Assembly: GCA_026770705.1 (NCBI GenBank)
Contig: JANJGN010000038.1
Coordinates: 12,276,001-12,340,000 of the forward strand
DNA: 64,000 nucleotides
Source: Isurus oxyrinchus
Taxonomy: Eukaryota
Reading direction: 5' to 3'
Part shown: one piece after another, positions 4,184 to 60,148 of the stretch
Layout: every line of letters starts with the position of its first letter
How positions within the stretch are numbered: position 1 is the stretch's first letter
The notes under the pieces: generated by a model
What the model was told of the DNA's origin: nothing
Seen by the model: the letters and a program-made list of their open reading frames with translations, nothing else
Databases searched by the model: none
Made by a program: the position numbers and the translations under genes

Positions 4184-5588
4184 TACCCCTGGGGTGATGT
4201 TCAGCGAGTTCAGGGAGATGGTATCAGTAGGAATGAGTTGATCAGGAATACAGTTCAAGATCACAGCAGAAGGGCGAATGACAGCGCTAATGGATTTAAC
4301 AGAAAAGGTGGAAGTGGAGAGTCGGCCTGTGTTTACTCGAATAAGGACCATGTATATGCTAAACGGAAAGGGGTGGGCCAGGGCGAGGTGCGGGCTACGT
4401 CTGTTTGTTTATTTAAGAGAAAATGCAAAGCCAGTGTCTCAGTATCCGATCGGCACCAGGATCTGTGAACAAGCCCCATGTTTATGGTTACTTACAGCAT
4501 AAAGTTAGACCCCACCTTTGAATATTTTCACGGTTTTGACCCCCCGTATGTCGAATAGACCTAAAGCTCTGTAATAATTTGCAGGATTTGTACTTAATAA
4601 TATATCAGTGCCAGTCCCTGGAAACATCCCTTGGTTTGTGCTCCATATTCTGCCTGTGTTATATATCTAGCTTGTGGCATCCCCACTTCAAAGTGTTTAA
4701 TCGGACAATGCAGAGGGATCTTTACCGTTTTTCTGACCCTGATTGCACCAACGGTGGGAGTGTTTGATGGGGTATTTTAAAGGAAGTTTTCTGCTCCAAT
4801 TTCCTGTCCTATATCAGCCTCCAATGAAGCCGAACACTATAGTTTAGAATTACCAGACATGTGACTGTGACCGCCCAGAGTGAAATCACCGAGGTGACCT
4901 TCCCTGTTCAATCATTTCACCTCGGTCAATTGCCAGAAACAGGCAGAGGTAAAAGTCTCCTTACACGGATGGGACGATGGGTGGCCCAATGGGGTCTTCG
5001 GTGCAAACAGATCCCAGACAAGACTGGTAAAACTGGGAGAAATGTGTAATAGGGAAAATGGAGCGATGTGAATGGGCCTTGGAGAAAGGAATCCAGCAAA
5101 GTCACAGTTAGTCCACTTTTCATTCCATTTTATTAGTAATATCAGAGAATATTTCACAAGAAAGTTTATTTTAAAGTTAACAGAAGTGAATATAATGCCT
5201 GAGGTCACGTTGGGAACAGAACACATGCACGCTGAGTTGGTAAATTGTATGTACCACTGGAACATAGATCAGAAAGAGAAAACTGTGGCTCAAAGGAAAG
5301 GGAAGCGGGCAATAATGAATAACGAATGAAAACGTTACTTAATTACAATTGAAATCCTACCTCTAGGGAAATTAGATGCTACAATTACATTACAACCATT
5401 ATCATCTCGCACATTTCATACATGAAAAAGGAAATACTGCTATAGGTTCGGTTACAGATTTGGGATCACAAATTGAAGACATTTCACCTTTAGAATCACC
5501 AAGACAACATATTTTATACTAGAATACAGAGATCTGAATAAACAGCTGAGGAAAAGCTACAGGGTCCAAACCTTTTCATTTGAAAAGA

Positions 5589-5597
5589 TCATTTGAT
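5589..5597 (-). other. Ig heavy-chain TM2 micro-exon (coding part), cassette 1: ATC AAA TGA = IK*
   Basis: Preceded by the polypyrimidine acceptor ttttctgcctcttttacag. Same position and acceptor in all three cassettes. Gives a K-I-K tail comparable to the canonical KVK of membrane Ig. Confidence 0.75.
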
Positions 5598-5744
5598 CTG
5601 TAAAAGAGGCAGAAAATAATGAAGCAGATGTTTATGATCTGGTGCATTCATATTATAGTTTTTAATTGTTGAAATATTTAGAAAGTTTTCAAACCGCTTC
5701 TGTCAGATTGTAGTGTTCAATCCACTAGGATTGAATATTCTCAC

Positions 5745-5872
5745 CTTTACCAGAGTGACGGCAGCGCTGTCGAAAATGCTCAGGAAGAACAGGACAATGA
5801 ATGTTGGAGCTATTGTCCAGATGTTCCCGTTATCGTCCTCATAGCCTTCAATCCAGATGCGGTCTGTTGAAT
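5745..5872 (-). other. Ig heavy-chain membrane exon TM1 (mu-like), orphan cassette 1
   Basis: 128-nt exon, tag|AT...AAG|gtgaga, phase 1 start. Reads (D)STDRIWIEGYEDDNGNIWTIAPTFIVLFFLSIFDSAAVTLVK: acidic spacer plus the antigen-receptor transmembrane (CART) pattern W-T-T-A-S-T-F-I-x-L-F-x-L-S-x-F-Y-x-x-x-V-T-L-x-K. Confidence 0.88.
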
Positions 5873-8179
5873 CTACACGGATATTACCGAGAGGTTGGCC
5901 AATGGGAACCTCAATTAATCTCAGCAAAAAAAAACAACAAATCATGTAATACATTTAAAATCATGCGATGTCGGAATGAAGCTGGAATTTATCCATATGA
6001 AAGTATCTGCTATTAGATAGAAACAGATAACACTCACGAGGAGAAAGATGGAAAGCCAAGGTGTCACGTCGACGCCATTTCATCAGAACATTCAGGTCTT
6101 CACCATCCAGTGTCTTTTGTTACGTTTGCGCCGTTGCTTTTTTGACTTGTGCAAGTTTGCCTACCATTTTATTGCCGTTTATTTATTTGAGGATAAAATT
6201 ATTAATATTTTATTTCAGTTTTGCGGTAGCTGAATGGATAACAAAGCTTAGCATTGCACTGCACAGATGGAGGCCAGTACACCCATTATTCCTTTTCCTG
6301 AAAGTGCTATTCCATTTGTCCGGTTCCAATGCTCTTTCTCATAGTAATTTATTTTCCTTTCTGAATAGTGATTCATTTTTGGAAGAAATATTATCCAGTC
6401 TGCTTCTACCACGTGTTCAGCTTGTGCATACACAGGTCACCATGAATAACTTATTTAAAATGTCCAGATATTCCCATTGGTTTTTTAACCTCTACTACCA
6501 AAGTAAAACAAACAGAAAAGAAATACAGAGAACAGGAATTGAATATAGTTATTACTACGGGTGCCAAGTAGCAGTAATAATCCATGGGGATAGCAACTTT
6601 AGCCACCATTTTCGACCGTGGACTTGAATGAGCTGATCTCAGTGCTGGGAAGTATAGTATAAAAAAATTGCGTACCACGCTAACTTAGGAAGGGCTGAGG
6701 TTTTGCTAATGCTAAGGATGAATGTGACCAAATACAAGAATATTAGAAACACATGAGGATAAATGGCAAAGTAATTTAATTCTGACCAAGATTGAAGATT
6801 AAGCCGAGGCAAACTATTGGTTGGAAATTATGATCTTAAATGAGATTAAGACTCGGGGTCATCCAGAATGGTAATGCTTCATAAATCAAGGAATGCCCAT
6901 TGAGATAAATGCCGCAACATTTGCAGATGATTGGGAAATTTCAAGTGACTAAATGTTCAAGAAGAATTTTTCACGAATATGTCCACTGAAGAGTCCACGC
7001 ATGTTGACTGAACGTCCAATCAGCACGTCAATAAAACACCCCTAACACTTTTGCAGTTCCGTTGATAGCTCATCAACCTGAAACGGTTACCTGTTTTTTT
7101 GTTCTCAATCCAGAGATGTTATCCAGTCAACGAAATGTGTCCAGCATTTTCTCTTGCATATATAAACAGTCTCCGAAGAGAGCAGAATAAATTAATATTG
7201 TATTTTTTTTCATGTTATTGGAGTGGGATATTGAGACAGACAAATTTTCAATGATCAATAATTGGGACTCAGAAATACATACTTTTATAGGTATAGAGAC
7301 GTTGGGAATAGGCGAATTTCGTGCAGATATTTAAAACACCTCCACGCATTTAATGGATAAAAAAATGACTTTTTTTAGAGCATGTCAGAGAATCGTTGTG
7401 ACTCAGGTCACATTGCGATCAACATGGTTAATGAACAGCTGTCCAATATTCAATTCTGATTCGTCGACCTAAGTGGCCAGTTAACTTTAATCGAGCTTCC
7501 TTATGCAAATACGTAAGCACATTGCAGGGTGCCGCACACAAATTAAAGAGAAGGTCCTGACCATTAAAGAGTGGCTGGTGCTCCAGGAAAGCAGATGCCA
7601 ATTTGATCCAGGAATGTACAAAGTATTGAGTTGATATTCAGAGTGCGTACTCCTGAGCAACCGTTGCTGCAAGTAAAGCCACGGAACAGATGGATGCAAA
7701 GTAATCTCAATATATAGTGGATATATGTCCATGAAAGGGAGTCTGTGCCATTCAACTTCACCAGGTAGGATCCATTTAATGGATGCGATACACTTGGCTT
7801 TTTCAGTCCTTGCACGTAGTTCATCTAGGAATCAGTTGCTAGAATCGGTGGATATATTTCACAAGGTGTTACTAGCATGTTGATGCATAGTGCCTATACG
7901 GCACGGATACAGAGATGAATTGGCCTAAAGTGGATATCCTAGAGTCTCCTTATTTGAACCTATTTTTTTAATGCAGTTGATAATGACCCGAAGCTCAAAG
8001 ACACAACAACAATGGCTGAATTTGTGGAGGGAACAAGGCTGTTGAAGATGGTCGACTGCAAAACCTGATAAAGATTAGCTCCAGGAAGATGTTTGGAATA
8101 GGAGAGACAGACAGTATTTGCACTTCAACAGATAGGAATGGTAAAAAATAAATGCCACATGTAGACCAGAATTGCAATG

Positions 8180-10075: not shown

Positions 10076-11269
10076 GCATTCGATACGGTGCAACGTAAAA
10101 GATTATTGCACAAGATAAGAGCTCACGGTATTGGGAGAAATGTATTAGTATAGATTGAGGATTAGATAACACACAGGATACAGAGAGTCTGGATTAATGG
10201 GTCCTTTTCAGACGCATTGGAAAGACGCAACAAATGGAGTGCCAGAAGTATCAGTCTTGGCGCCTCAACTATTTATTATCTATTGCAATGACTTGGAGGA
10301 GCGGACAGAGTGTGATGTATCCAAATTTGCTGAAGATACAATAGGTGAGAAGCCATGTTGTGAAAGGACATAAGGAATATAAAAGGGGTTGTAGATAGGT
10401 TGAGTGAGTGGGAAAAAAAGAAAACACTTGGCAGATGGAGATTAATGCAAGAAAGTGTGAGGTCATTCACTTTTGTAGGAAGAATCAAAAGGCAGACTAT
10501 TATTAAAATGGAGAGAGACCCCAAAAACATGCAGGATCTGATTGTTCTTGTGTACGAAACACAAAACGTCAACATACAAATGTAACAAGTAATTAAGAAG
10601 GCAAATGACATTTTGGCCTGTGTTGCTAGGGGTTTACAGTTTTAAAAATAGGGAGGTCTTTTTACAAATGTGCTGGCTTCGGTGGGGCCACACCTGGAGT
10701 GCTATGTACAGTTTCGGTCCCCGTATTTAAGAAATGATATATTGGCATCAGATGCAGTTCAAAGCGGATTCGTTAGGCTGATTCCTGGGATGAAGGAGTT
10801 GACTTATCAGGAATGGCTGAACAGACTAGGACTTTATTTATTAGCGTTTAGAGGAATGAGGAATTATATTATTGAGATGAACAGAATCTGAGGGGAGGGG
10901 CTGTTGGCAGGTGGATATTGAGAAAATGTTCGATCTAGTGGCGGAATCTCGAGCTAGGGGACATAGTTACATAATAAGGGGCCACTCATACAAAACTGAG
11001 TTGCGAAGGAATATCTTCTCTCTGAGAGTATTGAATGACTGGAATTCTCTACCCCAGAGAGTTGTGGAGGCTTGATCTCTGAAGGTATTTAAAAAAGAGA
11101 TGGATAGATTATTGAAATATCGTGAGTTGATCTTCATGGAGAGCTGGCAGTACATAGGAGTTGAGGCCTGGGGCAGATCAGCCATGGTGTTATTGAATGG
11201 GGGGGGGGGAGGGTTGGACGGCCGAATGGCTTACTGATGTTGCAATTTCTTATTATCACTTGTCTATTA
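10076..11269 (+). mobile_element. CR1-clade LINE, 5'-truncated, nested in an older LINE
   Basis: AFDTV...GVPE.SVL, SKFAEDT, VGPHLECYVQFRSPYLR motifs and a CR1 3' tail (ggccgaatggcttactgatgttgcaatttctt). Confidence 0.85.
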
Positions 11270-11680
11270 CCACCCCATCGACAAACATTCAGTCCCTGCA
11301 GCACCGATGCAAAGAGGCAGCAGTTGTGAACAACCTACATAATGCATTTCAGGATCTTACCAAGGCTTCTTAGACATCATCTTACCAATCTACGATCTCT
11401 ACTGCCTGGAAGATCAAGCACAGGAAATGAATAAGAACACCATCGGCTTCAAGTTCTCTTCCACGCCACACACCATCCAGACTTTGAATCAGATCATCGT
11501 TCCTTCACTGTCATGGAGGTGAAATCTTTGAACTTCCTCCCTAAATGCACTGTACCTGTATGTACACTACATGGACTGCAGCGGTTCAAGAACGCGGCTC
11601 ACCATCAACTTCCGAAGGACAATTAGTGATTGGCAATAAATGTTAACCTAGCCAGTGAAGCGTAATTCTGCACACAAATT
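11270..11680 (+). mobile_element. 3' end of a second LINE family (same as 44225-44865); its upstream part is at ~10030-10075
   Basis: actatccaggacaaagcaatgcggttgactggc (10045-10077) joins caccccatcgacaaacattcagtccc (11271), matching the uninterrupted copy at 44430-44490. Confidence 0.75.
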
Positions 11681-15029: not shown

Positions 15030-16430
15030 CACAGAATCAGAGAATCACAGGTTCGCACAGTGCAGAAGAGGCCCTTCTGCTCATCGAGTCTGCACTGACA
15101 CGTGAGAAACATCTGACCTACCTAACTAATTCCATTGACCAGCACTTGGCCCACAACCATGAATGTAAGGACGTGCCAAGTATTCATCCAGGCACTTTAT
15201 AAAGGATGTGAGGCAACCAGCCTCCATTACCCTCTCAGGCAGTGTATTCCAGACAGTCACCAACACCTGGGTAAAAAAGGTTTTCCCTCACATCCTCCCG
15301 AAACCTCCTGCCCCTCACGTTGAACTTGTGTTCTATCGTGACTGAGCCTTCATCTAAGGGGAACAGCTGCTCCCTATCCACCCCGTCCATACGCCTCACA
15401 ATCTTGTACACCTTGAACTGATCGCCCCTCAGTCTTCTCTGCTATGCTGAAAATAACCCAAGTCTATGCAACCTCTCTTTATAACTTAAATGTTTCAGCC
15501 CAGGCAGCATCCAGGTGTACCTCCTCTCCACCACTTCTAGCGCAATCACATCTTTTCTATCATTTGGCGATCAAAACTGCACACAGCACTCCCACTGTGG
15601 TCTCACCAAGGTTCTGTACAACTCCAACATGGCCCCTCTACTTTTGCAATATGTGCCTCGACTGATAAAGGCAAGTATCCCAAATGCCTTCTTCACGACC
15701 CCATTAACACGCCGCTCTGCCTTCAGAGACTTATGGACAGAGGCACCAAGGTCCCTTTGTTCGTCAGATCTTCCTGATGCCATGCTGTTCATTGAATACT
15801 TCCTTGTCAAATTACTCCTTCCAAAGTGTATAACCTCACGCTTTCCAGGGTTAAATTCCATCTGCCACTTATCTGCCCATTTGACCACCATGCCAATATC
15901 TTCCTCCAGCCTAAGACTCTCAACCTCACTGTAAACCAACCAACCAATCTTTGTGTCATCCGCAAACTTACTAATCATACTCCTCACATAGTCATCTATG
16001 TCATTTATATAAATAACGAACAATAGGGGACCCAGCACAGATCCCTATGGTACACCACTTGTCTCGAGTTTTCAGTCACTAAAGCAGCCTTCTGTCATCA
16101 CACTCTGTCTCCTACAACTAAGCCAATTTATAATCCATTTTATCAAATTACCCTGTATCCCATGCACATTTGCCTTATTTATAAGGCTGTCATTTGGGAC
16201 CTTGTCAAAGGCTTTTCTGAAATCCATATAAACTACATCAACTGCACTACCATCATCTACACACCTGGTCATCTCCTCAAAAACTCAGTAAAATTTTTTT
16301 GGCATGACCTACCTCTGAAAAATCCATGCTGAATATTTCGTATCAAACCTTCTCTCTCCAAGTTAAGATAGATTCTTTCCTTCAGAATTTTCTCCAATAG
16401 TTTCCCGACCACTGACGTGAGACTCACTCG
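15030..16430 (-). mobile_element. CR1-clade LINE, RT domain and 3' UTR, 5'-truncated
   Basis: ORFs give SLTSVVGKLLEKIL, QHGF..GRSC, VDVVYMDFRKAFDKVP, LGPLLFVIYINDID, ISKFADDTKIG and LYRTLVRP; several frameshifts. Confidence 0.92.
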
Positions 16431-17800: not shown

Positions 17801-20159
17801 TCATTTAAATAAATTAACAATCAGACTCAATGGATATTTCAAGCCATTCTTTAACTCCTCTCTGAATTTACTCTGGGTACCTGCACAAATAAACAGGTTG
17901 ATGCAGGAACTTAAAAGCTGCAGCATAAGTCTGCATTCCTCCTGTATAACATTTGATTGATTGAAATTCGAGCCATCGAAATAACTAACGATGGCAATTC
18001 GTGCATAAAGGAAAGTTTTAAGAGCGAGGAAATATAACAGGATGAAACTTCCCGAGATGGCAAAGAATAAAACGATGGACTTTCTCCTCTTCTCCATCTC
18101 TGGGTCGCTTTGGTTATCACTCTTGCTGTGGGCTCGCAGTCTTCTGCGGGGTCGACTGGCCACAACAATGTGCCTGACCGTCAGAACATTGAGCAGCAAA
18201 ATAAGAACGAATAGGAGACAAGGGGTTAAAACGGCATTTATGCTGTCATGTACCACCCATCCGGGTGATGAATACAATATTGGCTTTAGTTTGCAGTACT
18301 AGGGTGTATTGTCTGTGATAACAGAAGGTTCACAAGCAAAGTAAAAGGGTATTTTTTTAGCACAATGCACAACGCAGACAGTTCCTATGACCACAGCTGC
18401 CGATTTCTTGGTGCAATATTTGGTTTTCAGCTTCTGGCAACAAATGGCTACAAATCAATCAAAGGTGAAAGCAGCTGTCACCCAGACAGAAGAATCCTTG
18501 ACGCCATATATGAACAAAAGACTGAGAGCAAAGGCCAGAGTGATGGAAAGGAAACTTAATGGGAAATATGTACCTGCAATCCGGTTTAACATCACCGCAA
18601 GGATCATGATCAGGAGATCCGTCACGGCCAACGACATCAGATAGTATGTGATACATCCAGTGAGACCGCATCTTCCTCGAGACAGGATCAAAATTACTGC
18701 CAAATTAACTGTGACAGAGGAATATAACCAGTAAATTTGCGGTGGGGACAAATGAATATAGAACAGAAAATATTGAGAAACTCACAAATACAGCATCGGT
18801 CATGAAAAGAGAGCAATGTTCCCATTTCAGTCCTATGACTTATATGCTCCAGTGGAGAAAGAAAGACTCATTCCAAAATACAGCAAATCGTCAATACTGT
18901 GCTGATTTACAGGAAGAATGCGGGCTCGGCCCTATAGTGAATATTCAAATTGCAGAATTTTTACTCAGTTCATTGAAAAACGATCAAGTATCCTCTTGCT
19001 TGCTGTTTAGAGAAGAACAGGATGGAACATTGGAAAACAGAAGGGACACAATGTTAAATCGACCTAATAATTTGACAGAAACTCAGTAGATGGCTTCGAA
19101 TGGAATTAAATACAAAGTGATGCTGCTGTGGGCATAATCCAGCAAATGAAAACAGCTAAAATGGAAAAAAAAACTCCTTTGGATGGAAATAAAGGGTAAC
19201 TACAACTCCTGAGTTATGATGACGTGCAGCGAACACAACTGTCCCTCACAGCAGTGAGGAAATCCACACACAGTTAAAGGTTCAATTGCTGCTAAGTTGA
19301 AAGTCGTCTAGCTTTGGAGTCAAAAGATCTTGGATTCAAGATCAACTTCAGCTCCCTGAGAATTCTTCACCGCCCAGGGTGCCAGGTTTCCGCTAAGACA
19401 ATAAACTCTCGGCCAGTCATTTAATATTCTGCACAAATTTATCAGATAAATACTGTTCATATCGGAGCGATAGGTGAAAGGGAAATGCATGAGATAATAC
19501 AGATACAGTTCCTCTGTAATAATTCACACACGATGAGAATGCCATTGACACAACAGAAAAACATTTCCTCAGTGGTAACAGCGTTATACATAACCTTTTT
19601 TAAAAACACCAAGCATAAAATAAAATAACATCTGAAACCTCGAACGGTGGAGGTAAACAGATGAAAGTGTCCAATTAAACTGAATAAATATTACTAGCTC
19701 AGGGAAGATAGTGCATTGTTACTGCTGAACTATTATTCTGGCGTTGGGGAGAAATTATGTACAAGGGAAGAAATGACACGGAAAAACTTGAGCGACTCGG
19801 CATGTGATGACGACTAATCATGTCAGTAAAAGAAAACAATTTTGTTGCTAAAATGGAGAATTAAATTAAACATTTCCCTTGAAGTGGAAAAAAGTGACAT
19901 TGTCGAGCTGATAAAGTGGAAAGATGTCACGTAATGTTGATAGATTGTTCTGTTTAATGGGAGAAAGAATATCGTACCATGTAGAAGCAAAGCTGCTAAA
20001 TACGAACAACGATTCACTAAAATGAAAGCAAACCAAAGAAAAGTGATTAAACAATGATTTCAATAACATAGCAAACCAAAATCCTTAACCTGGAATCCTG
20101 ATCGCTGCAAGGACGGGATAGTATATGATGAAAATCAGACATTTTGGCAATCCATGCAT
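17801..20159 (-). pseudogene. GPR139/GPR142-like GPCR, copy B (exon 1 20090-20159; exon 2 17801-18708)
   Basis: Exon 1 MHGLPKCLIFIIYYPVLAAIRIP (70 nt, G|gttaag). Exon 2 after cag| reads (V)NLAVILILSRGRCGL...TAAFTFD*FVAICCQKLK...LLSSCINLFICAGTQSKFREELK...LFK*. Two in-frame stops: TGA 18455-18457 (replaces R of DRF) and TAG 18299-18301 (replaces W). Confidence 0.92.
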
Positions 20160-32100: not shown

Positions 32101-32875
32101 TCTCCCACTACAGCAATCATTGAGCTGCAAAAAAAAACCCCGCTGATGCTGTTTGACCTGTTTCCACAGGAACTAAACCCGAATTGAATCAATGGCGTTC
32201 GTTCAACTTTATTTTCCATCGTCCGTGGTTCCCTCATTTATTTCTTAGGAATAAGTTATTACCCATATTTTATTTCCTGTCATTCGATTGCTCTAAGTAT
32301 TATAGCGGTTTAACATTTCATAACGTTATTATTTACCGGAATTTAAACGACTAAATGTATTGATTTATTATCTATACGTTATGCCATCTTCAGGCTGTCC
32401 TTTTGTCTATTTAATACGTTAATCCTGTTCAATTCCTGCTATTTCTAGATTGCATAAACTTTACAGAAATCAGAAAATAAGTGTTTTGTGTTATTTCATG
32501 TTCCAATTTCCAATGTATTTGGGACAATATTAACAAAAAAACCACACTACGTTACTAAATTAATCAGTTCCAGCGTTGAATCAAGTATTCATGATATAAA
32601 TTCCATACCCTCTCCCACCAAACTGCAGGTGTAGCTGAGAGTTTCAGCACTAATTCTGTTCCTCTCTCTCTCCTCTTTCTCTCTCTCGCTCTCTGCCTTA
32701 CAGCTAACTTTCTAATGATTGTGATCTTCTCCCGAGCAATTTGTGGTTTCTCCTGATGTATCACGCAGTATCTGGTATCCATGGTGGTGACAGATCTCCT
32801 TGTCATTAGCATTACCGTGACATTAAGCCCATTTCCGGCTGTTTATTTTCCAGTCAGTTTTCTGTCCACCATTCC
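29119..32875 (+). repeat. Local tandem duplication, about 1.85-kb unit (29119-30957 and 31042-32875): GPCR intron plus start of exon 2
   Basis: Collinear similarity, e.g. ttaactgtgaatccttgagggtcagatg vs ttaactgtgaagccttgagggtcaaatg, and agtaagtttcgtatccaaattgctgcc in both units. Confidence 0.9.
30801..30957 (+). pseudogene. GPR139-like exon 2 5' fragment
   Basis: After a CT-repeat acceptor: ctaactttctgactatcgtgaaatgttcccgaggaagatgt (NFLTIVKCSRGRC), ...VSMAVID..., ...VYFTVSFL; then the homology stops. Confidence 0.75.
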
Positions 32876-33604
32876 TCTATGTCGTCCTTGTTGCTTTAAA
32901 CTCTGGTTCGAAAGGTTGTACTCTCTGGTCAACTTTCAAGTTCACCTTTTACTGTTCCCTAGCCATTTGTCACCAGGAGCTGAAAATGAAATACTGCAGT
33001 TAGAAAACAGCAGCTGGAAATTTAAGAATGACCTGTGTGCAGTCCTCTTTGATAAACACCCCTTTTTATTTCATGTATGAACTTATTTATATCGTTAACA
33101 ACGTAACTCTATCATAGATGATGCATTTTATATTTTATTTCCATGGAGAATGTTTGACTGGCTGGACTGTATTCTAACCCCTTGTCTCTCCTTTCTCCTG
33201 ACTTTGCTGCTCGATATTGAGACATCCTGAAATATTTTACTGGTAAGTAAATCCTGCAGCAGACTCTGATCCCACAGGAATGGAGAGAATCAGAGTGACT
33301 CAGAGATGAAGAGCCACAGCAAGTCTATTGTTGTACTCTTCTCCATCTCAGGCAGTTTCCTCCAGCTGGCCTTGACGCATATTGTACGTTTCCTGTTTGC
33401 ACAAAGTATGGGAAATAGCTGATCTATCAGTTCCATTTCCATTGACACAAAATTTATTCTGCAGCAAATCCGACAGTGTTTTTAACTCCTTAGACCCTGT
33501 AAGAATACATTTATATATGCAGGGACCCAGACTAAATACAAAGCGGAGCTGAAAAGGGCGTTTAAATACTCTTTCAATCTATTGCCAAATGGCATAAACA
33601 GTGA
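32704..33604 (+). pseudogene. GPR139/GPR142-like GPCR, copy C, exon 2, heavily disabled
   Basis: cag|CT AAC TTT CTA ATG: NFLMIVIFSRAICGFS*CITQYLVSMVVTDLLVI...; later NGENQSDSEMKSHSKSIVVLFSISGSF and NTFIYAGTQTKYKAELK. Several stops and frameshifts; exon 1 not recognised. Confidence 0.88.
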
Positions 33605-36901: not shown

Positions 36902-39130
36902 ATGCATGGGATACCAGAAGGTCTGGTGTTCGCCATTTACTATCCCGTTCTTGCAGCTATTGGTATTCCAGGTAAAGTATTAGGGTTAGTTACCAGTTAC
37001 CAGAATCATTTTTCTATCACTTCTTTAATTTAGCTGTATTGCTTCTCTATGGTTCACCCTATTAACAGGATAATTTGTTATTTATAATGTTTTCCCTTTT
37101 TTGCAGTATCCTTATCTCTACGTTTAATACATTCTTCTTTTAATTGATATTAAACCTTCCCTTTCCTCGCAATATTACTGCTCATTACTGGTCTCTTTTC
37201 TCCACTTTAAGGGTATCATTTCTCCCCTTCACGAGAACAGTTTCTTCCCATTGCCAGTATACTTACTTCCATTTCAGGGATTACTATGTTTGCTTCACCA
37301 ATGCCTTTTCATCTCTTTAATTAAAAAGTTTCTCCCACTTAGCAGTGCGGTCTCTCAGTCTAAGTGAAATTAGATGTTGTTATTGTCATTATTAATGTGG
37401 GCGAAGTATTTAGCACACTAATATCACAGTGCAATGTAGATCAATTGTATTATTGGCACTGTCACCATGGATGATTTATTACGCTGTAAATGTAGCTCTA
37501 TTGTGTTATTTTCACAGCTATTGAATTACCTCACTTTGCCATGTGCATATATTGCTCCTTGCACTGGAATGTGAATAACAGCTATTTCTTAAGTTAGATT
37601 TTGTATTCACGAGTTATTGGACCGTTCCTCAGTCTTTTGTTTTAGCTGAAATATAGCATATCGGGCAGTGCAACGTTGCTGAAGTCCATCAGTTGGACTT
37701 GAATGCTAAACCTTTTGAATCAAAAGTGAGATTGCTACAAATTGAGCCACACCTGATCCATAGTAAGCATGATCTGCTTTACTCGTGGCTGTGAAGCCTT
37801 GTTCCTTTAACTTCGAATTGTTGCAGCTAAGATGCATCAGATCTCCTTCATCTTTTTTTCAGTTAAGTACTAGCTTTTTTTTTGCTGAACTTTTTTCAAG
37901 CTCTGTAAAGTATTTGTTAACCTTCGATTTTCCAGTGTTTCAGAGTATTCTTATATTTTCCCGTCGCTAAACATTAGATGAGAACAACATTGATTGTATT
38001 TCAGAGTCACAATCCAGGACGTTCAATGTTCACCTTGGGTGAGCCCTTAGTGTTGCTGACAGTACAGAACAGATTGCTGTGTTTTAGGTTATTTTCCTCT
38101 AGATCATTTCTCTGACATGCTAACTTGTTCCTCTCTTTTCAACTGCTGCTTGAATGAGAATTTCCAACATTTTATGTTATAAATTTCTTTCTCAACATCT
38201 GATATTCACTGGCTGCGTTTCGCTGTCACAGCTAATCTGGCAGTGATTCTGATACTGCCTCGAGGAAGATGCGGTCTCTCAAAATGTATCACTTACTACC
38301 TGATGTCCATGGCCGTGACGGATCTCCTTGTCGGGATCACAGTTGTGTTATTAAACCGGGTTATAGGTATTTATTTCCCATTCAGTCTCTTGTCCATCAC
38401 TCCGGTCTTCAGCCTCAGACTTGTGCTAATTTATTGTGTCATCGATTCTTCTGTCTGTGTCACCTTTGACCGATTTGTAGCCATTTGCTGCCAGAAGCTG
38501 AAAACTAAATATTGCACTGAGAAAATGGCGGCTGCGGTGATAGGAACTGTCTGTGTACTGAACTGTGTTAAAAGCATCCCCTTGTATTTTATGTGTGAGC
38601 CTGCCTTTATCATTGACAATATACCCTGGCAATGCAACACAAAATCAATATTTTATACATCACCTGCATGGGTCGCTTAAGAAAGCATAATCGCCGTGTT
38701 AATCCTCTGCCTCTCATTCGTCCTTATTTTACTGCTCAATGCTCTGACCATCAGACACATTGTAGCGGCCAGTCGAGCCCGCAGGAGACTCCGGATCCAG
38801 AGCAATGGAGAGAATCAAAGTGACCCAGAGATGCAGAAGAGAAGGAAGTCCATGGTTTTGCTCTTCTGTATCTCGGGCAGTTTCATCCTGTTATATTTGT
38901 TAAGACTTATAAACTTCCTCTATGTCCGAATTGCGAATCTTAGCTATGTGGACTCTACCAATATCAATGAATCAAATTTTCTTATGGAGGAAAGCGCACG
39001 TATGCTTCAACTTCTGAGTTCCTGCGTCAATCCGTTTATTTATGCAGGGACCCAGAGTAAATTCAGAGAAGAGTTAAAGAATGGTGTGAAATTCCCACTG
39101 AATCTGCTTGTTAAATTATTTAAAAGATGA
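36902..39130 (+). pseudogene. GPR139/GPR142-like GPCR, copy D (exon 1 36902-36971; exon 2 38232-39130)
   Basis: Exon 1 MHGIPEGLVFAIYYPVLAAIGIP (G|gtaaag); exon 2 cag|CT AAT CTG GCA. ORFs 38243-38680 and 38696-39130 are in the same frame, separated by one TAA (38678-38680). There is also a 4-codon deletion in TM3 (SSVCVTFDRF vs SSVWVTAAFTFDRF). TM7 reads NPFIY. Confidence 0.92.
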
Positions 39131-44865: not shown

Positions 44866-46908
44866 ACTGTTACAGAAGCATCACTTTACCCTTTGACTTT
44901 TTAATTGATATTGTGCCTAATTGTGACGAAGTATTGATATCCGACTCTAACATTGACGGAGTAAATGATGCTTTGGTCAAATACGTTGAATGACCACATG
45001 TGTTGGGCTCCATATCCTCTTGTAAGTAATTGACCAATTTTGAAGGATTTTCTGCGGTGTGCTCGCACAGATTGCCTGAATAAACAAACTTCCCTGATGG
45101 AAAGTCACGAAGAGTTGGGCTTGTGATTCTTATACAGTTTTTGACATATGCAGTGTTTAAGCGTACAAAAGAACCAAAAGTCGTTTTTACTGATCAGGAT
45201 GGTTTTCATTACTCTGAATGGATATGCACAATGTAAATCTATTTACTGTACCGTGAACTGAGGCTGTAACAGAAAAGGAGAAAAGCTTTGCTACAGCTGT
45301 ACAAATCCCTGGTTAGATTATATGCTGGAATACTTGTATAGTTCTGGGAACGAAACATTAGAAATGATAAACATTGGTCTAGAAGCAGGCCGGCACTGAT
45401 CTACCAGAATGCTTGGAAGGTTTTAATATTTAGACTCAGGCACCATGCCAGTTATTACAGCAGGACAACTGTTGGATTCCGCCTGGTGCCTCAGCTTGAA
45501 ATGAATTTCAGGATGTTAGAGTCAATGTGCAGCAAATATCCAAATGTATAACTACTTTTACTCAATCATTAGTAATACCATGCAAATTCAAACAACTATA
45601 CTCAGTATCTGTTCCATGATTCAATGTTTAAAATCAAAGTTGTAATATTTGTATTCTCATTTTGAAATTAGGCACTCTCCACTTTGCAACACAAAACGAG
45701 TTGTAAACCTGGGGGAGTTGCACCATTTGTTGCAGCGAAGAAACAACTCTGGCCTGGAGTGCTGTTTTCAAAGGTCAGTTGTGATCGGTTGATCAGGAGT
45801 AATGTGTGTATCTGTGTAAACAGCAAGCAGAAACATCTGTCCCATTGCAACCCATATTCAGCCTTACACCACCATCTTTAGTCAGTTAACTTTTTGTGCA
45901 TTGTGCATTAGCACAGCCCATCTCACCCCTTTCCTTCACTTCTAATCTCTGCCTCTATAGCTGTTCTCGACCAGTGGACACAGTGGGTGGGGGGGAAGGG
46001 GGGGGGGGTGGTGGTGGCGTGGGGGGGGCACTTTACTCCGCACCTAACCAGTGCTGTAGAGGCCTGGGAATATTTTATGTGATATGTAAAGAACGTATTC
46101 TTCCACAAACATTGTGCTGCATTAACCTCTGAGGAAGAGTGCCTTTATTATTTAGAACGACCAGACGCTGACTGTGACAGATCAGAGACGTCACTGAGTT
46201 GCTCTTCGCCATTCCATCATTCTGCTTCTGGTTTTCACCATAAAAGGGAAGGGGTAAACATTTCTTTACACGGGTGTGGCGTTGTGTGGTGAATCGCTCT
46301 TTGACTGAAGGGCCTCGAGTTCAAACACTTTGCAGACAGGAATCGTGATAAATACCACTCGGGAAAGGAGGAAAACGTGAAATAGGGAAAATGCAGCCAT
46401 GTCGATGAAGCGAGGAGAAATGAATTCAGCAAAGTCATACTTGGTGCAATTATCATTCAAGATTTATTAACAATTTCAGAGCATGTTTTATAGAAATGGT
46501 TCATGTAAAGGTCACAAAAGTGAATTTATCGTTTGAGTGTCACATTGAGACAACCCCATATGCTCTGAGCTGCCAACTGTAAGTAGAAGTGTAACATAAG
46601 CCAGAAAGAGAAAACAGAAATTTAGCATAAAGGGAAGGGGACAACAGCGAAAGAAAAGTCATATTTACAAATGCAATTCAAGCTATAGTGAAATTATAAG
46701 TTACAGTTATTTTAAAATAATAATTATCTCGCGCATTTCAGACAGAAAAGCGGAAATACTGTCCACGAATGTCTCAATTACAGATTCAGAATCATAAAAT
46801 GAAGACATTTCACTGTTAGCGTCACCAGGAGAACATATTTTAAAGTCACAATACAGAGATCTCAATAAACAACTGAGGAACAGCCAAGGAAGTCCGAAAA
46901 TCAACCGA

Positions 46909-46917
46909 TCACTTAAA
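46909..46917 (-). other. Ig heavy-chain TM2 micro-exon (coding part), cassette 2: TTT AAG TGA = FK*
   Basis: Acceptor ttttctccctcttttacag; positionally homologous to cassettes 1 and 3. Confidence 0.7.
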
Positions 46918-47048
46918 CTGTAAAAGAGGGAGAAAATATTGCAGCAGATATTAATGACCTGGGACATTTATGTTGGAGTTTTCAATCAGTGAAATATTTG
47001 GAGATTTTTCCTGTCATATTGATGTGTGAGTGGATTGAATCTTCTCAC

Positions 47049-47176
47049 CATCACCAGAGTGACGGCAGCGCCATAGAAAATGCTCAAGAAGAACAGGGCG
47101 ATGAATGTGGAAGCAGTGGTCCAGATGTTCCCGTTATTGTCCTCAGAGTCTTTAATCCAGATGTGGCCCGTGGAAT
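47049..47176 (-). other. Ig heavy-chain membrane exon TM1 (mu-like), orphan cassette 2
   Basis: 128 nt, ctctag|AT...ATG|gtgaga. Reads (D)STGHIWIKDSEDNNGNIWTTASTFIALFFLSIFYGAAVTLVM, the best match to the CART pattern of the three. Confidence 0.92.
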
Positions 47177-48129
47177 CTAGAGGGATGTAGCCAAGGAAAT
47201 GTTTTAATATGCATATTAATCCAGGACATCCCATTATCTTTTGCACATATATTCTGTTGTATCTTCCTCAAGCTTTTGGCTTAGTTTCGAATTAAATTTT
47301 CATGCATGCCTATTATTACATTAGTGGCTCTCAGTAATCTTTGTCTGTTACTAACAACAGAGCCGTTCTTGCTTTACATTCCGTATACTGTCCATATCAG
47401 TACATTGTATTTTCAAAGATTCAGTGCCAATGTGTTTTGGATCAATTTCATATGACCTATTACTGGATTACGCAGGAAAATTAGTAGTTCAAAACGGTTA
47501 TTTTAACGATAGGTACTTATGGCTACTAAATGCAGGCTCTGGGTCTTATCACTTATGTGATCAGTTGGGGAATCTCATCTTCTTTCATAATTTGTGATGG
47601 AAATGCTTGGAAAATCATTCACTTAACTCAGTTTCTAAGTGAGAGCGTTGTTTCAATGTATTTGCAGGGTGTGCATGTTATTGGAAGTATTATTGGAGGA
47701 TACAACTGTTAAGTACAAACAAAGGATTATAATCTCGGCCCGGAGAGAACAAAGTCCTGTTTTATGGAGCTGATTAGGATGAAGCTGGACCATCATTTTC
47801 CAGACCTTCTCCCAAAAGCACATTCCAGAAAGAGGTAGACAATGATTTCTCTGATCCCAGCTCTTTCAAGGACAGAATGGGTGCATGTTAGATTCTGGGC
47901 TGACAGGGTGGATCTGAAAGGGGAATCCCGTCTCACCAAAAACTAACGATATTCATGTTGATGGTTTGAAGATTTATAAAGGAAGCTTTCATCAGCTGTG
48001 GAATATGAAACACGATGGCCGAGAAGTGGTAATCAGCTTTGGATAGCCATTCCGCCATTTTCAACGTTCCCTGCCCCGCAGCTCCACATTTCTCACCTGC
48101 ACTTCAGAACAAGGTTTCAAGGGAACAGT

Positions 48130-52680: not shown

Positions 52681-53047
52681 GTTCATCTTGGAATGTGGTA
52701 ACAAATCAGATATATGACACTTTGCCGTCCACATGAACGTAGAGATACTACGAGGACTACAGGGACCCTGGATTCTGATGGGAATAAGACAGACCACAGA
52801 AGATATGGGGAAGAGAACATTTAACTACCAGAGAACAGATACTGACCCTTAATTGTGCTCGGATGTATTGCGCCTTTAACAGTCTTATTTTCAAACTGAG
52901 TGACTGTGAACTAGAATGGAAAACAATGCTTGGCATCGACAAGAAGGGGAAAGGATGGAATCTTGTGTACAGTTGAAGTTGGATTTTGCTGTCCTTAGCG
53001 TCCAAATAATTTAACAATTTCAAGTAGTGGATATTTCACCCCATTCT

Positions 53048-55714
53048 TTAACACCTCTCTGAATTTACTCTGGTCGCTGCATAAATAAACAGGTTTGCGC
53101 AGGAACTCAAAAACTGAAGCATATATGCTTTTTCCTCAAGAATGAATGTTGAAAGATTGATTTCAGAGCTTGATAAGTATTTAACATTTCCAATTTGCAC
53201 ATAGAGGAAAATTATAAAAATTAACAAATATAACAGGATGAAATTTCCCGATATACAGAAGAGTAAAATGATGGACATTGTCCGCTTCTCCATCTCAGGG
53301 TCACGCTGATTGTCTCCATTTCTCCGGGTCTGGAGTCTCCTGCGAGATCTACTGGCTGCGAGAATGTGTCTGACTGTCAGGACATTGAGCAGTAAAATCA
53401 GAATGAATGGGAGACAAGGGGTTAAAATGTGATGAATGCAGTCATAGGCGATCCATGCAAGTGAGGTATAAAATATCACTTTTACATCGCAGAACCAGGG
53501 CACATTGTCAATTATGTACAAAGATTCGTATATAAAATACTGGAAGGTGTTTTTGACACAGCTGATTGTGCAGATTGTCCCTATAACCCATGCCGCCGTT
53601 TTTTTGGAACAACATTTTACTTTCAGCTTCTGGCAACAAATGGCCACAAATCGATCAAAGGTGAAAGCTGTAGTTAACCAGGCAGAGCTGTCTATGGCTG
53701 AATATATTAGGGCTTCACGGAGACTGCATACTGGTGTGATTGACAGGAAACTGAGTGGGAAATAAATACCAGCAGTCCGGTTCAATATCACAGCGGTTAT
53801 AATGAGCAGGAGATCTGACACCGCCAGGGATTGTAAATAATAGGTTATACAGGTGGAGATACCGCATTTCACTCGAGAAAGGATTACAATCACCGCCAGG
53901 TTAGCTGCAATAAAGAGAGAGAGAGAAAGAGAGAAGTTGGAAAGAGACTGAGTTTGTGTATGTGAGTTTGGGAGAGAACGAACACAGGAAGGTTACTGCT
54001 CAAACTATAAACAAATCAACAATTGTATAGGATTCTGCATGAATTTGTACATTTCAGATGTGTTCCCCAGTTGCGCAATTGCAATGGGCAAGTGATTCAG
54101 CTTTGTAAATTGAAATCTTAATTCAATATAGGTCAGGTCAAAGTTATATGAATGTCAAATATTTTAATAAAAACTAATGGAGAACAAAAGACATCGTTAA
54201 CACTGAGAAACCAACGTAGAATTTCTGTATAAGCAAGAAGAAAGTGTACGCATTGCAGGAAATAATGACGAAGGTAAGTAACAAAACAAGCAACAAGAAG
54301 TGTGGAAACTAACAAGGGCACGGATTATATCTCACTGAAGATCAATATAGTTCCTTTCCTATATAATAATTGGCAATAATTATTGAAAATTATTCGTTGT
54401 TGTGAACTTTGGGAATTAGACCTGCTCAAAAATATCGACATACAGCGAGGAGTAAAGGGGCAATGAATTTTTTCTGATCTTCCAGACAGGGTGTTTGCCT
54501 GCATGTGAAGATACATTCTAGCTCCTCACTTATAGTCAACTGGAAGATCGGTGTCGATCTGAACCTTTGGAATTGGCGGAAACCGAAGTCTCCTTCCGAG
54601 TGAGGTCCCTCTTGCAATGCAGCACTGACTCCGTACTGCACTGCACTTTCGGGATCAACTATCAACGTTGTCCTGTAATGGATATTTCAAATCAAAGCAT
54701 TGCGCCTGAGATGCGAAAGATGCAGCCAAGTAGGCAGCCTCATTCAATATGGACAAACAGTGGAGACGGGAAAATGTGGGACATTGCCCGGTGATATCAG
54801 CAGAAGGAAATTCTGGCGTCAACAGTGGTCAAGTCAAAGCGTCAGCAGCAGCTCATGAACAAATTAGTGTTGGAGACTGAGAGCAGAAACACACCTGTGT
54901 GATCGTGGTGCTAATATAGAATATTCATCAAAAGTCTATTATTACATTGCTCATACATCTGTCAAAAACTGGGTGCTCATGATGTCCTTCCATCAAATTC
55001 ATTGGGGGAATATTGAATGTTACATTGCTCTCTATCAATGAAACATTCGTGGGAATTGTTCGATCATTGTCAATGCGAACAGCACAACAGATTTACATTT
55101 GCACCGTGAAAACAGTGTGATAGCTCATCCACAGTTCGACTGTCAATAACAGAAGATGATCCATTTCACAGTGTGTTTAAAGTGTGATCACATAACCACA
55201 GTTCGACTGTCAGTAACAGAAGGTGATCACAGGGTAATATTTTACCATTAACGGCGAGAAATTGCACACTTTGCAGGGTGATATGATAGCACTTAAATTG
55301 TGAAATTTTGTTTTTAACAAGGTTATATTATGCCACTAACAGCGAAGAATTGCACCTTTAATAGCATATTATTAAGCCATTAGCGGTGAGAATTTTAGGC
55401 AAAGGGAACAAATTATATTGTCAAAATTGAGACATTATACCTATAAAGTGGGGAAAATGTTCTTTTAGAGGGGTAAAATATACTTGTTAAAAGAGGGAAA
55501 TTGCCCCATTAATGGGGAGAATTGTACAGATAAAGGGCGGAATGGGAGAATGGGTATAACGTTATGGATATACAATGCTTTTAAAAGGTAGAATTCCTGC
55601 AGACAACCGATTTCCGTATCAAAATACTAATTACAATACTTTACCTGGAACCCCGAGAGCTGCAAGGACTGGATAATAAATGGCAGACAGAAGGTCTTTT
55701 GGTGATCCATGCAT
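53048..55714 (-). CDS. GPR139/GPR142-like class A GPCR, copy E (exon 1 55645-55714; exon 2 53048-53904), 308 aa, C-tail altered by a 1-nt deletion
   Basis: Exon 1 MHGSPKDLLSAIYYPVLAALGVP (G|gtaaag) plus ttgcag|CT AAC CTG gives an uninterrupted frame through seven hydrophobic segments, with LAVSD (TM2), TFDRF (TM3) and SSCANLFIY (TM7). The YYxxLxxxGxP|ANx split across the single intron matches GPR139 gene structure. The ancestral tail QSKFREVLKNGVKYPLLEIVKLFGR* (stop 52995-52997) lies in another frame. Confidence 0.8.
55220..55560. repeat. Degenerate minisatellite (taaaggggagaattgtac-like units) in intron of copy E
   Basis: Recurrent taa..ggggagaa(a)ttg words. Related tracts in the introns of copies B (~19830-19980) and D (~37000-37360). 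Confidence 0.55.
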
Positions 55715-55765
55715 TTCCAACAAATGTTCTGAACGCCTTCTGCACATCACTGAAAGATTGTCACA

Positions 55766-57925: not shown

Positions 57926-58229
57926 CCTGAACGGTAGTGTGGAAGAGGATGGGAGTCATATTGGGAGAGATAAAGGGTTTAAACATTAACTTCACCGATT
58001 AACAAACAGCATTCCGAGTCTTTAAGATGCGTCGGTAATTTTTCCCTGCCTCACACTTCCTACATTCAACAACAAGGAACCTCGCCCGTGAACTCTGGGA
58101 TTTTAGAGAAAATGTTGGAAGATATTAGGTCGTGGAGAGAACTTCTCCTGATATTCCCATGATTGGGAGGCGCTGAAGGAACCACTGAAAAAACAATGAA
58201 GCAGATAGATCAAAACCCCGAGGGTGATA

Positions 58230-58415
58230 AAAGAATAAAACTGCAGATGCTGGAAATCTGAAAGAAACACAGAAAGCTCTGCAGGTCTGATAGCATCTGT
58301 GGAGACAGAAACAAAGTTATAAAATTTCATCAGACAGACTCGAAACGTCAACTCTATTCCTTCTTCCACAGGTGCTGTCCGCCTGCTGAGGTTTAGCAGC
58401 ATTTTCTGTGTTTAC
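58230..58415. mobile_element. Fold-back Penelope-like terminus (paralogue of 3975-4183)
   Basis: Same inverted arms; gactcgaaacgtcaact at ~58337-58353. Confidence 0.7.
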
Positions 58416-59871
58416 GTAACCGTGGGTTGATGTTCATTTAGTTCAGGGAGATTGTATCAGAAGGAATGGAGCAGGGAGCGAGGATCCCTGGGGTTATGCT
58501 CAGTGAGAACAGGGAGATGGTATCAGTAGGAATGAGCTGATCAGGAAACAGTTCACAATCGAAGGAAAAGGGAGAATGACAGGGCTAATGGATTTAAAAG
58601 AAAAGTTGGAAGTGGACAGCCAGTGTGTATTTAGCGGAATGTGGACCGTATATATTCTTAACAGAAAGGCGTTGGTTTGGTGGGGTGCGAGTAATGCCTG
58701 TTTGTGTAGTTAAGAAATACTTCGAAGCCAGTGTCTCAGTATTCGATAGGCCCCAGGATCAAGGAACAAGCCCCATGTTTATGTTTACTTGCTGCATCAT
58801 GTGGAACCCCGTCTTTGGGCATTTTTGCGGTTTTGTCTCCCTGGTATGTGCAATAGACCTAAAGATCTGTAATAATTTACAGGATTTTCACTCGATCATA
58901 TATCAGTGCCAGACACGTTCGAGTCTCTGGAATCGCCCCTTTGTTAATGCTCGCAATTATGCCTGTGTTATATATCTAGCCAGAGGCACCCCTGCCTTCA
59001 AAGTGTTTAATTGGACAATGCAGAGGGATCTTAACTCTCTTATGACCCTGGCTGTACCAACGGTCGGAGTGTTGGCTAGGGCAGTGTAACGGAAGTTTTC
59101 TGATCCAACATCCTGTCATGCGTCAGCCTCTGAAGAAGCCGAACGCTACTATATAAAATTACCTGACATGTGACTGTGACTGCCCAGACTATAAGTCAAA
59201 TCACAGAGGTGGCCCTCCCTGTTCAATCATTCCGCCTCAGGCAATTGCCGGAAACAGGCAGAGGTAAAGGTCCCTTTGCACGGAAGGGGAGATGAGTTGC
59301 TCATTGGGGCCTTCTGGGCAAATAGATCCCAGACAGGACTGGTGAAATAGGGAGAAATGTGTAATAGGGAAAATGGTGGAGTGTCGATGGACCGCAGAAA
59401 AAGGAATTCAGCAAAGCCATAGTTAGTTCACTTTTCATTCCACATTCATTAGCAATTTCAGAGAATATTTTACATGAAAGTTTATTTTATGGTTAACAGA
59501 CGTGAATATAATGCCTGAGCGTCACATTGGGAGCATGCACTCTGATTTGGTAAACCGTATGTACCACGAAAACATAGATCAGAAAGAGAAAACAGCGGCT
59601 CAATGGAAAGGGAAGGGAACAATAGTGAAAATGGAACGAGAAAAGTTAATTAACGACAAATGGAATTCTAAGTCCATGGAAATTAGATGCTCCAATTTCA
59701 TTACGACCATTAACATCTCGCACATTTCAAACAGAAAAACAGAAATTCTGTGGCAGGTTCGGTTACAGATCGGGAATTACAAAGTGAGAACATTTCACTT
59801 TTACAGTGACCAAGAGAACATATTTTAAATTGGAATTAAAGGAAAAGCTACGGGGTCCGAAATTCAACCGA

Positions 59872-59880
59872 TCACTTGAT
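59872..59880 (-). other. Ig heavy-chain TM2 micro-exon (coding part), cassette 3: ATC AAG TGA = IK*
   Basis: Acceptor ttctccctcttttacag. AATAAA on the minus strand at 59481-59486 (homologue at 5165-5170). Confidence 0.75.
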
Positions 59881-60020
59881 CTGTAAAAGAGGGAGAATAT
59901 AATGAAGCAGATGTTTATGATCTGGTGCATTTATGTTATAGATCTTAATCGTTGAAACATTAAGAAAGTTTTCAAACCGCTTCTGTCAGATTGTCGTGTT
60001 AGTAAATTCAATTTTCTCAC

Positions 60021-60148
60021 ATTCACTAGAGTGACGGCAGTTCTGTAGAAAATGCTCAGGACGAACAGGGCAATGGATATGGAAGCTGTTGTGCAGACGT
60101 TCCCGTTATCGTCCTCATTGTCTTCAATCCACACGCGTTCTGTGGAAT
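60021..60148 (-). other. Ig heavy-chain membrane exon TM1 (mu-like), cassette 3
   Basis: 128 nt, ctgtag|AT...AAT|gtgaga. Reads (D)STERVWIEDNEDDNGNVCTTASISIALFVLSIFYRTAVTLVN. Confidence 0.88.

What the first reader, a model, noticed from the sequence alone, without database searches (positions are those of the whole stretch)
5165..60148. Three orphan immunoglobulin heavy-chain membrane cassettes embedded in a GPCR gene cluster
Seen: three minus-strand 128-nt exons (5745-5872, 47049-47176, 60021-60148), all stop-free with AG/GT borders. Each is followed after a 131-147 nt intron by a micro-exon (IK*, FK*, IK*) and a downstream AATAAA. Established: this peptide pattern and two-exon layout are those of membrane IgH (TM1/TM2, CART motif, KVK-type tail), and sharks carry IgH as many small clusters. 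From memory the DS.DHIWIED spacer resembles shark IgM; this needs confirmation. Unusual: I can find no V, D, J or C-domain exon in 64 kb, and cassettes 1 and 2 have GPCR genes rather than CH exons upstream. Inference: 3' ends of IgH clusters have been co-amplified with the GPCR genes, either as debris from mixed Ig/GPCR duplication units or as reusable membrane-anchor modules.
Basis: partly seen in the sequence, partly recalled or inferred. Interest (0 to 1): 0.8.

Follow-up and report, generated by a model that had tools for sequence, protein, structure and literature searches.

The report
Amplified orphan shark antibody-anchor exons
Three leftover membrane-anchor exon pairs of shark IgM antibody genes, each cut off from the rest of its gene, lie in a DNA block with broken receptor genes that has been copied some 20-30 times; they are most likely decaying debris, not working parts.

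Summary
The three TM1/TM2 cassettes are real and of shark IgM type. No V or CH exon lies within 100 kb on either side. Each heads a family of 24-32 copies that share one breakpoint; none of 81 fetched copies has a CH exon within 8 kb upstream. A locus on contig C20 is collinear with the window over about 67 kb and still carries V, J and CH1-CH4 before the cassette-3 orthologue: cassette 3 is a beheaded IgM cluster, joined head-to-tail to the far end of the block. The three families stem from three IgM lineages. Genome-wide, 91 of 201 TM1 hits lack a nearby CH4, and 87 of them belong to these families. Constraint is relaxed (corrected dN/dS 0.76, against 0.32 in CH-linked copies). Families 1 and 3 have fixed Tyr>Asp and Ser>Arg in the helix, and the neighbouring GPR139-like genes are broken too. 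A mild deficit of replacements in families 1 and 2 is unexplained. Verdict: pseudogene debris amplified by segmental duplication; reusable anchors are not supported.

The parts
5745..5872 (-). Cassette 1, IgM TM1 exon (Tyr>Asp and Ser>Pro against CH-linked copies)
5589..5597 (-). Cassette 1, TM2 codons (IK*)
5129..5170 (-). Cassette 1, two AATAAA signals
4187..5891 (-). Whole IgM-derived segment of cassette 1 (84% to CH-linked clusters); only about 19 nt of the upstream intron are kept, breakpoint at about 5891
47049..47176 (-). Cassette 2, IgM TM1 exon (YG; tail M-FK)
46909..46917 (-). Cassette 2, TM2 codons (FK*)
46373..47655 (-). Whole IgM-derived segment of cassette 2 (70% to CH-linked clusters), with about 480 nt of the CH4-TM intron and AATAAA at 46463-46468
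60021..60148 (-). Cassette 3, IgM TM1 exon (Trp>Cys, Ser>Arg; tail N-IK)
59872..59880 (-). Cassette 3, TM2 codons (IK*); AATAAA at 59481-59486
60149..62704 (-). Retained 2.5 kb of the CH4-TM intron; homology to the C20 cluster ends at 62704, 1.8 kb short of CH4
63138..64000 (.). Sequence homologous (78-81%) to the far, downstream end of the C20 block in the same orientation: a head-to-tail join that stands where the CH exons were
53007..55714 (-). GPR139-like gene between cassettes 3 and 2 (exon 1 55640-55714, exon 2 53007-53905); frameshift just after helix 7
38231..39124 (+). GPR139-like pseudogene, 1 stop
32703..33581 (+). GPR139-like pseudogene, 7 stops (a duplicated fragment at 30800-30952)
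17804..20159 (-). GPR139-like pseudogene upstream of cassette 1, 2 stops in exon 2
1..379 (+). 3' part of a frameshifted GPR139-like gene that begins 509 bases before the window

Best explanation
The three cassettes are the membrane exons (TM1, TM2) of shark IgM clusters that have no V or constant exons nearby and are most likely non-functional leftovers, multiplied passively inside a large segmental duplication. Shown: each family has a single breakpoint in the CH4-TM intron (about 19 nt, 480 nt and 2.5 kb upstream of TM1). A locus on C20 keeps V-J-CH1-CH4 ahead of cassette 3 and then the same order of GPCR genes and cassettes 2 and 1. In the window family, the DNA upstream of cassette 3 matches the far end of that block in the same orientation. 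At least 17 places repeat the order 3-2-1. Inferred: IgM clusters and GPR139-like genes were interspersed in one tandem region; three neighbouring clusters of different IgM sub-lineages lost their 5' parts one after another (2 first, 3 last). The loss at cassette 3 was a head-to-tail (unequal crossing-over or tandem duplication) join, and the beheaded block was then copied 20-30 times, mostly recently (95-99% identity). Open frames and splice sites persist mainly because the exon is only 128 nt and most copies are young.
For: No V/CH in 264 kb or within 8 kb upstream in 81 of 81 fetched family copies. Joins are shared by 30 of 30, 21 of 21 and 30 of 30 copies. The C20 locus is collinear from window -4605 to 62704 at 84-91% and has stop-free V, CH1-CH4; C26 has broken CH1-CH4 before the same cassette. 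Window 63138-69871 matches C20 offsets 99994-92034, past cassette 1. Each family is one clade (ultrafast bootstrap 100, SH-aLRT 99-100), and the three do not group together (33 of 110 cassettes used). On a tree of all 110 cassettes, replacements per site run at 0.92 of the non-coding rate in orphans and 0.26 in CH-linked copies (Fisher P 4e-5). With context-corrected rates dN/dS is 0.76 (P 0.29 against neutral) versus 0.32 (P 0.005). 9 of 84 family copies have a TM1 stop, frameshift or altered donor, against 0 of 21 CH-linked copies; all 30 unbroken family-1 copies have Asp/Asn for the conserved Tyr and all 27 unbroken family-3 copies have Arg for Ser. The GPCR between cassettes 3 and 2 reaches its normal end in only 3 of 21 copies. 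DNA-like public runs of two studies hold contigs across the cassette-1 join, which argues against a mis-assembly.
Against: Replacements in the orphan exons are fewer than the flanks predict: 44 against 65.6 (P 0.003). The deficit lies in families 2 (0.61), 1a (0.49) and 1b (0.45); family 3 is neutral (0.95); silent changes are also somewhat low (0.89). Uncorrected N/S on the tree is 0.50, below neutral for families 1 and 2. 75 of 84 copies keep an open TM1 with both splice sites. Family 2's YG also occurs in skate IgM, and Gly is the mouse IgE residue there (PMC9860311), so family 2 is not disabled by sequence. The order of losses rests on which loci retain what, and the tree may be distorted by gene conversion among active clusters.
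Confidence: 0.82

Rival explanations
1. Family 2 (and perhaps 1) is or was a spare membrane exon: in the uncut locus CH4 would splice past a dead TM to the next cassette, and the amplified copies inherit that history or are still used in cis or trans.
For: At C20 the cluster's own TM1 has a stop, and cassette 2 lies 17.6 kb behind CH4 with an open TM1. Replacement deficit in families 1 and 2. YG is tolerated in other Ig helices (PMC9860311).
Against: 4 of 22 family-2 copies are broken or have an altered donor, and the first Lys of the tail is lost. The C20 secretory tail is frameshifted, and its cassette-2 TM2 acceptor did not match the pattern found in 21 of 22 family-2 copies and the C26 orthologue. 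The amplified copies lie at least 163 kb from any same-strand CH4 hit. The N-versus-S test is not significant (P 0.29).
Confidence: 0.08
2. The exons have no product of their own, but gene conversion from the roughly 110 CH-linked TM exons slows their decay, which explains the replacement deficit.
For: Both replacement and silent changes are low in family 1b (0.45, 0.39) and family 2 (0.61, 0.78), as exon-wide homogenisation would give. One family-2 copy has YS and one CH-linked copy has YR.
Against: Family-diagnostic changes stay fixed across nearly all copies, and the families are clean clades. No conversion test was run. This rival refines the best explanation and does not exclude it.
Confidence: 0.07
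3. The cassettes serve as membrane anchors or 3' ends for GPR139-like or other non-Ig transcripts.
For: Splice sites and poly(A) signals persist; a same-strand GPCR gene lies 6 kb upstream of cassette 2 and 12 kb upstream of cassette 1.
Against: Those GPCR genes are broken in the window and in most copies; two copies of cassette 2 had no GPCR within 8 kb; none of the 6 database proteins that match TM1 joins it to a non-Ig partner (a weak search of 19 candidates).
Confidence: 0.03

Closest known systems
Chondrichthyan IgM mini-clusters (V-D-D-J-CH1-4-TM1-TM2)
   Same: TM1/TM2 layout, phase, 3' UTR and poly(A) signal; 79-86% amino-acid identity to the CH-linked TM1 of the same genome. Cluster organisation and IgM pseudogenes in sharks are described in PMC5192425 (passages read).
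   Different: No V, D, J or CH exons; conserved helix residues changed; constraint relaxed; 87 copies from three breakpoints.
Orphaned, pseudogenised IGHZ-TM1 exon of Austrofundulus limnaeus
   Same: A lone Ig TM1 exon left after loss of the constant exons (bioRxiv 10.1101/752063, passages read).
   Different: One copy in a translocon locus there; here three families amplified 24-32 times with GPCR genes.
Rabbit IgD remnant
   Same: TM exons are the best-preserved part of a decayed heavy-chain gene and keep splice sites without being used (PMC5568218, abstract and section 12 read).
   Different: The rabbit locus keeps truncated CH2/CH3 and is single-copy; here the CH exons are absent and most TM1 frames are still open.
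Shark 'probable G-protein coupled receptor 139' expansions
   Same: The GPCR between cassettes 3 and 2 has 1249 relatives at E<=1e-20; 119 of the 120 listed carry shark names, best 75% identity.
   Different: In this block the copies are mostly pseudogenes interleaved with IgM remnants; I found no paper on that linkage.

Membership tests
IgH membrane exons, IgM type | TM1 exon in phase 1 with spacer and helix, short intron, two-codon TM2 | tested here: met
IgH membrane exons, IgM type | Sequence similarity to membrane IgM | tested here: met
   PDB hits to membrane mu chains; 68-76% to chondrichthyan heavy chains with four constant domains (the sources name them hypothetical or Ig-like, not IgM)
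IgH membrane exons, IgM type | IgM rather than IgW/IgNAR | tested here: met
   Orthologues sit behind four-domain CH1-CH4 clusters; 110 related TM1 exons pair with that CH4 type; two loci of another heavy-chain class gave no significant TM1 match in 30 kb each. The label IgW/IgNAR for those two loci is recalled, not from a call.
Functional shark IgM cluster | V, D, J and CH1-CH4 upstream of TM1 | tested here: not met
Functional shark IgM cluster | Conserved polar helix residues (Tyr18, Ser19) and basic tail | tested here: not met
   DS in cassette 1, YR in cassette 3; cassette 2 has a tolerated YG but has lost the first Lys. Y18F, S19V and S19L impair assembly in mouse, S19A does not (PMC9860311 passages); Asp and Arg were not among the mutants I read.
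Functional shark IgM cluster | Purifying selection on TM1 | tested here: inconclusive
   Far weaker than in CH-linked exons and neutral in family 3, but a replacement deficit remains in families 1 and 2
Functional shark IgM cluster | Expression as spliced mRNA | not testable with these tools
   No run on record as RNA holds the stretch
Segmental duplication | Multi-kb blocks at >90% identity at many places, with shared breakpoints | tested here: met
Processed (retrotransposed) pseudogene | Intron lost, poly(A) tail | tested here: not met
   The TM1-TM2 intron, part of the upstream intron and the genomic 3' flank are kept

The most novel reading that the evidence does not exclude
Some orphan cassettes, chiefly family 2, are still spliced onto heavy-chain or other transcripts as spare membrane anchors, in cis at the uncut C20 cluster whose own TM1 has a stop, or in trans from the amplified copies. 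That would give sharks a pool of exchangeable membrane exons outside the one-cluster-one-gene rule.
Probability: 0.08. Interest if true: 0.75.

Novelty: new variant of a known kind. Interest (0 to 1): 0.36.

Why it matters
If the best reading holds, about 43% (87 of 201 hits) of the IgM-type membrane exons in this genome are passengers from three truncation events. Counts of shark IgM clusters made from TM exons or TM probes would be nearly doubled. The C20, C26 and window loci form a graded series (near-intact, decayed, beheaded) that shows how mini-clusters die and how they ride along with GPR139-like genes in one duplicating region. That is useful for annotation and for birth-and-death models of cluster-type Ig loci, but it is not a new mechanism. 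If orphan cassettes proved to be spliced, it would be a new route of membrane-form diversity.

Tried and rejected
Ordinary cluster beyond the window: rejected. Cassettes as copies of one another: rejected as the sole origin, since the three families do not form one clade. Retrotransposed copies: rejected, introns are kept. Assembly artefact: unlikely, as copies differ by 1-10% with private indels and contigs of runs X2 and X5 cross the cassette-1 join (kind of run not on record, and one could be the assembly's own sample). Expression: no RNA holder listed. Three runs guessed to be RNA (X1, X10, X11) were laid: their pieces over TM1 show alleles of CH-linked type, with CH4-TM1 and TM1-TM2 joins. 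At the Tyr/Asp site of cassette 1 all laid depth in X1 and X11 reads Tyr. These runs may be of another species and contigs drop rare variants, so this says nothing on silence. One 264-base X1 contig (depth 2.8, 7 differences) matches the 3' UTR of cassette 2; it may be DNA. Pfam has no model that hits the TM exons. The C1-set scan was swamped by other genes (150 of 973 scored) and was replaced by a CH4 protein search. Raw N/S counts are biased by transitions and CpG and were redone with context rates. In one search the leader and J frames were set wrongly; only its V and TM1 rows are used. Nine literature searches listed no paper on orphan TM exons in sharks or on IgM-GPR139 linkage; the library lacks most subscription journals, and no supplements were read. 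Earlier scan findings: none returned. No fold or complex prediction was run; it would not bear on the question.
Full report
Observation. TM2 codons follow after 147, 131 and 140 nt and AATAAA 400-460 nt further on. Exon 2 matches membrane IgM chains in the PDB (E 8e-7) and the C-termini of six chondrichthyan heavy chains at 68-76%, so the host is a cartilaginous fish and the exons are IgH TM1/TM2. Against the CH-linked TM1 of the same genome (WTTASTF...IFYS...LVK, then IK*), each has lost something: cassette 1 has Tyr>Asp and Ser>Pro, cassette 3 Trp>Cys, Ser>Arg and Lys>Asn, cassette 2 Ser>Gly and Lys>Met.

Are they orphans? tblastn with the six heavy chains over the window plus 100 kb on each side finds the three TM exons and nothing else. 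In CH-linked clusters of this genome CH4 lies 3.0-6.2 kb upstream of TM1, so the absence is meaningful, and cassette 3 has no cluster beyond the window end.

Copy number. Each cassette heads a family, mostly at 95-99% DNA identity with older members near 85-92%. From the searches I collected 201 distinct TM1 places out of about 220 first-look candidates and paired them with 116 CH4 hits. 110 have CH4 within 8 kb, 91 do not. Of the 91, 87 belong to the three families (32, 24 and 31 for cassettes 1, 2, 3, window included); four others lie on C26. I fetched 81 family copies with 8 kb upstream: none holds a V or CH exon, and all share their family's join (30 of 30, 21 of 21, 30 of 30). Read by hand from the hit coordinates, 17 places repeat the order 3-2-1, mostly about 13 and 41 kb apart, interspersed on C38, C42, C20 and smaller contigs with CH-linked clusters.

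Origin. C20:77.085-77.16 Mb is collinear with the window from -4605 to 62704 at 84-91%. It reads V, J, CH1-CH4 (V and CH stop-free), the cassette-3 orthologue with a Trp>stop, a GPCR, cassette 2, more GPCRs, cassette 1 with a frameshift, a GPCR; its secretory tail is frameshifted. C26:5.907-5.955 Mb has broken CH1-CH4, then cassette 3, a GPCR and cassette 2, collinear at 81-86%, without cassette 1 in the 140 kb fetched. In the window family homology to C20 stops at 62704, 1.8 kb short of CH4, and from 63138 the DNA matches the far end of the C20 block in the same orientation. That is the signature of a head-to-tail join; the mechanism (unequal crossing-over or tandem duplication) is inferred. 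Cassette 2 keeps about 480 nt and cassette 1 about 19 nt of upstream intron. A tree of 33 of the 110 cassettes makes each family one clade with full support. Family 1 is sister to the C38-type clusters (97/94), family 3 lies outside these, family 2 is deeper (unrooted, conversion not excluded). So three clusters were truncated separately, by inference 2 first and 3 last, and the block was amplified afterwards.

Function. On a tree of all 110 cassettes, replacements per site run at 0.92 of the non-coding rate in orphans and 0.26 in CH-linked copies (Fisher P 4e-5); raw N/S is 0.50 against 0.16. With rates by context taken from the flanks (80 orphan and 19 CH-linked copies), orphans show 44 replacements against 65.6 expected and 25 silent against 28.2 (dN/dS 0.76, P 0.29). 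CH-linked copies show 11 against 46.5 and 15 against 20.6 (0.32, P 0.005). Family 3 is neutral (0.95). Families 1 and 2 keep a deficit of replacements (0.45-0.61, each P 0.03-0.06, pooled P 0.003) that I cannot explain; conversion, local rate variation or weak past constraint are possible. 9 of 84 family copies have a TM1 stop, frameshift or changed donor, against 0 of 21 CH-linked; one frameshift is shared by four copies, so events are fewer than copies. In mouse IgM, Y18F and bulky changes at S19 impair receptor assembly while S19A does not, and IgE has Gly there (PMC9860311, passages). By inference cassettes 1 and 3 would not assemble, while cassette 2, whose YG is also in skate IgM, could. 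The GPCR genes are GPR139-like. All five touching the window are broken, and the one between cassettes 3 and 2 reaches its normal end in 3 of 21 copies, has a frameshift after helix 7 in 7 and an earlier break in 11. The whole block looks like decaying cargo.

Reality of the arrangement. In run X2 a 199-base contig spans 5813-6003, and in run X5 a 314-base contig spans 5614-5934, both across the cassette-1 join; X2 also has an exact 92-base piece with the Asp allele. These are two studies; the kind of run is not on record. Expression could not be tested.

Comparison. It works like nothing: it is a remnant of the shark IgM mini-cluster (PMC5192425, passages) and fails the membership test for a functional cluster on V/CH exons. 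Lone or surviving TM exons are known from a killifish IGHZ (10.1101/752063, passages) and rabbit IgD (PMC5568218, abstract and section 12). I found no report of this scale or of the linkage with GPR139-like genes in nine searches, in a library that lacks most subscription journals.

Verdict. Observation confirmed; debris reading supported (0.82), reusable-anchor reading not supported; new variant of a known kind; interest 0.36. The side finding most worth a look is outside the window: three C26 loci in which V and a joined DJ lie directly before TM1 with all CH exons deleted.

Noticed in passing
L191-L193 (G000 C26, TM1 at 32314164, 34569344, 37547932); L192:7313-9270: Three CH-less IgM genes: leader, V with its recombination signal, a germline-joined D-J behind one signal, a J donor in phase 1, about 700 nt of intron, then TM1 (YS kept) and TM2. 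A 97% sister on C152 has 18 kb between the two sides of the join, so CH1-CH4 were deleted. V is open in 2 of 3 and has Cys for the conserved Trp of the light-chain face (position recalled). V plus TM1 show 3 replacements (one a stop) against 8.1 expected and 5 silent against 3.1 (P 0.04, weak). After V-to-DJ rearrangement they would encode a single V domain on a membrane stalk; expression untested.
   Followed up: partly
L071-L080 (G000 C20:77085700-77157500): Uncut version of the block: stop-free V and CH1-CH4, but a stop in its own TM1 and a frameshifted secretory tail, followed by two further TM cassettes.
   Followed up: yes
G000 C26 about 5962640-5962830 (L082): A V-domain fragment only 32% like IgH V that looks like a T-cell receptor alpha/delta V (recalled motif resemblance), lying among GPR139-like genes next to a decayed IgM cluster.
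   Followed up: no
G000 C26:5873000-5874150, C26:25301046, C20:76734426: The mirror case: CH3-CH4 with no TM1 hit in the DNA fetched downstream (50 kb, 8.6 kb, 8.2 kb).
   Followed up: partly
L194 (G000 C26:23038663): A further lone TM1 with YS intact and no V or CH in 8.9 kb upstream, outside the three families.
   Followed up: partly
window 5874 (loose end in run X11): A contig guessed to be RNA joins the middle of CH4 directly to TM1, beside the full CH4-TM1 form: an alternative membrane splice of ordinary IgM.
   Followed up: no
window 29070-32864: Direct duplication of about 1.9 kb (78%) that includes the start of a GPCR pseudogene; also present on C20 and C26.
   Followed up: no
window 15037-16416, 11269-11670, 44238-44877: LINE-type reverse-transcriptase fragments (Pfam RVT_1 at 15574-16044) and related repeats.
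   Followed up: no
L039-L040 (130.6-133.4 kb in window coordinates) and copies at about -36 kb and +79 kb: Young Penelope-like retroelement (926-aa open frame with reverse-transcriptase and GIY-YIG-like motifs, recalled); copies at 95-99% have inserted into single copies of the block.
   Followed up: no
G000 C38:12176001-12440000, at -24636 to -23731 in window coordinates: The only GPR139-like gene of 11 in the 264 kb with an unbroken second exon.
   Followed up: no
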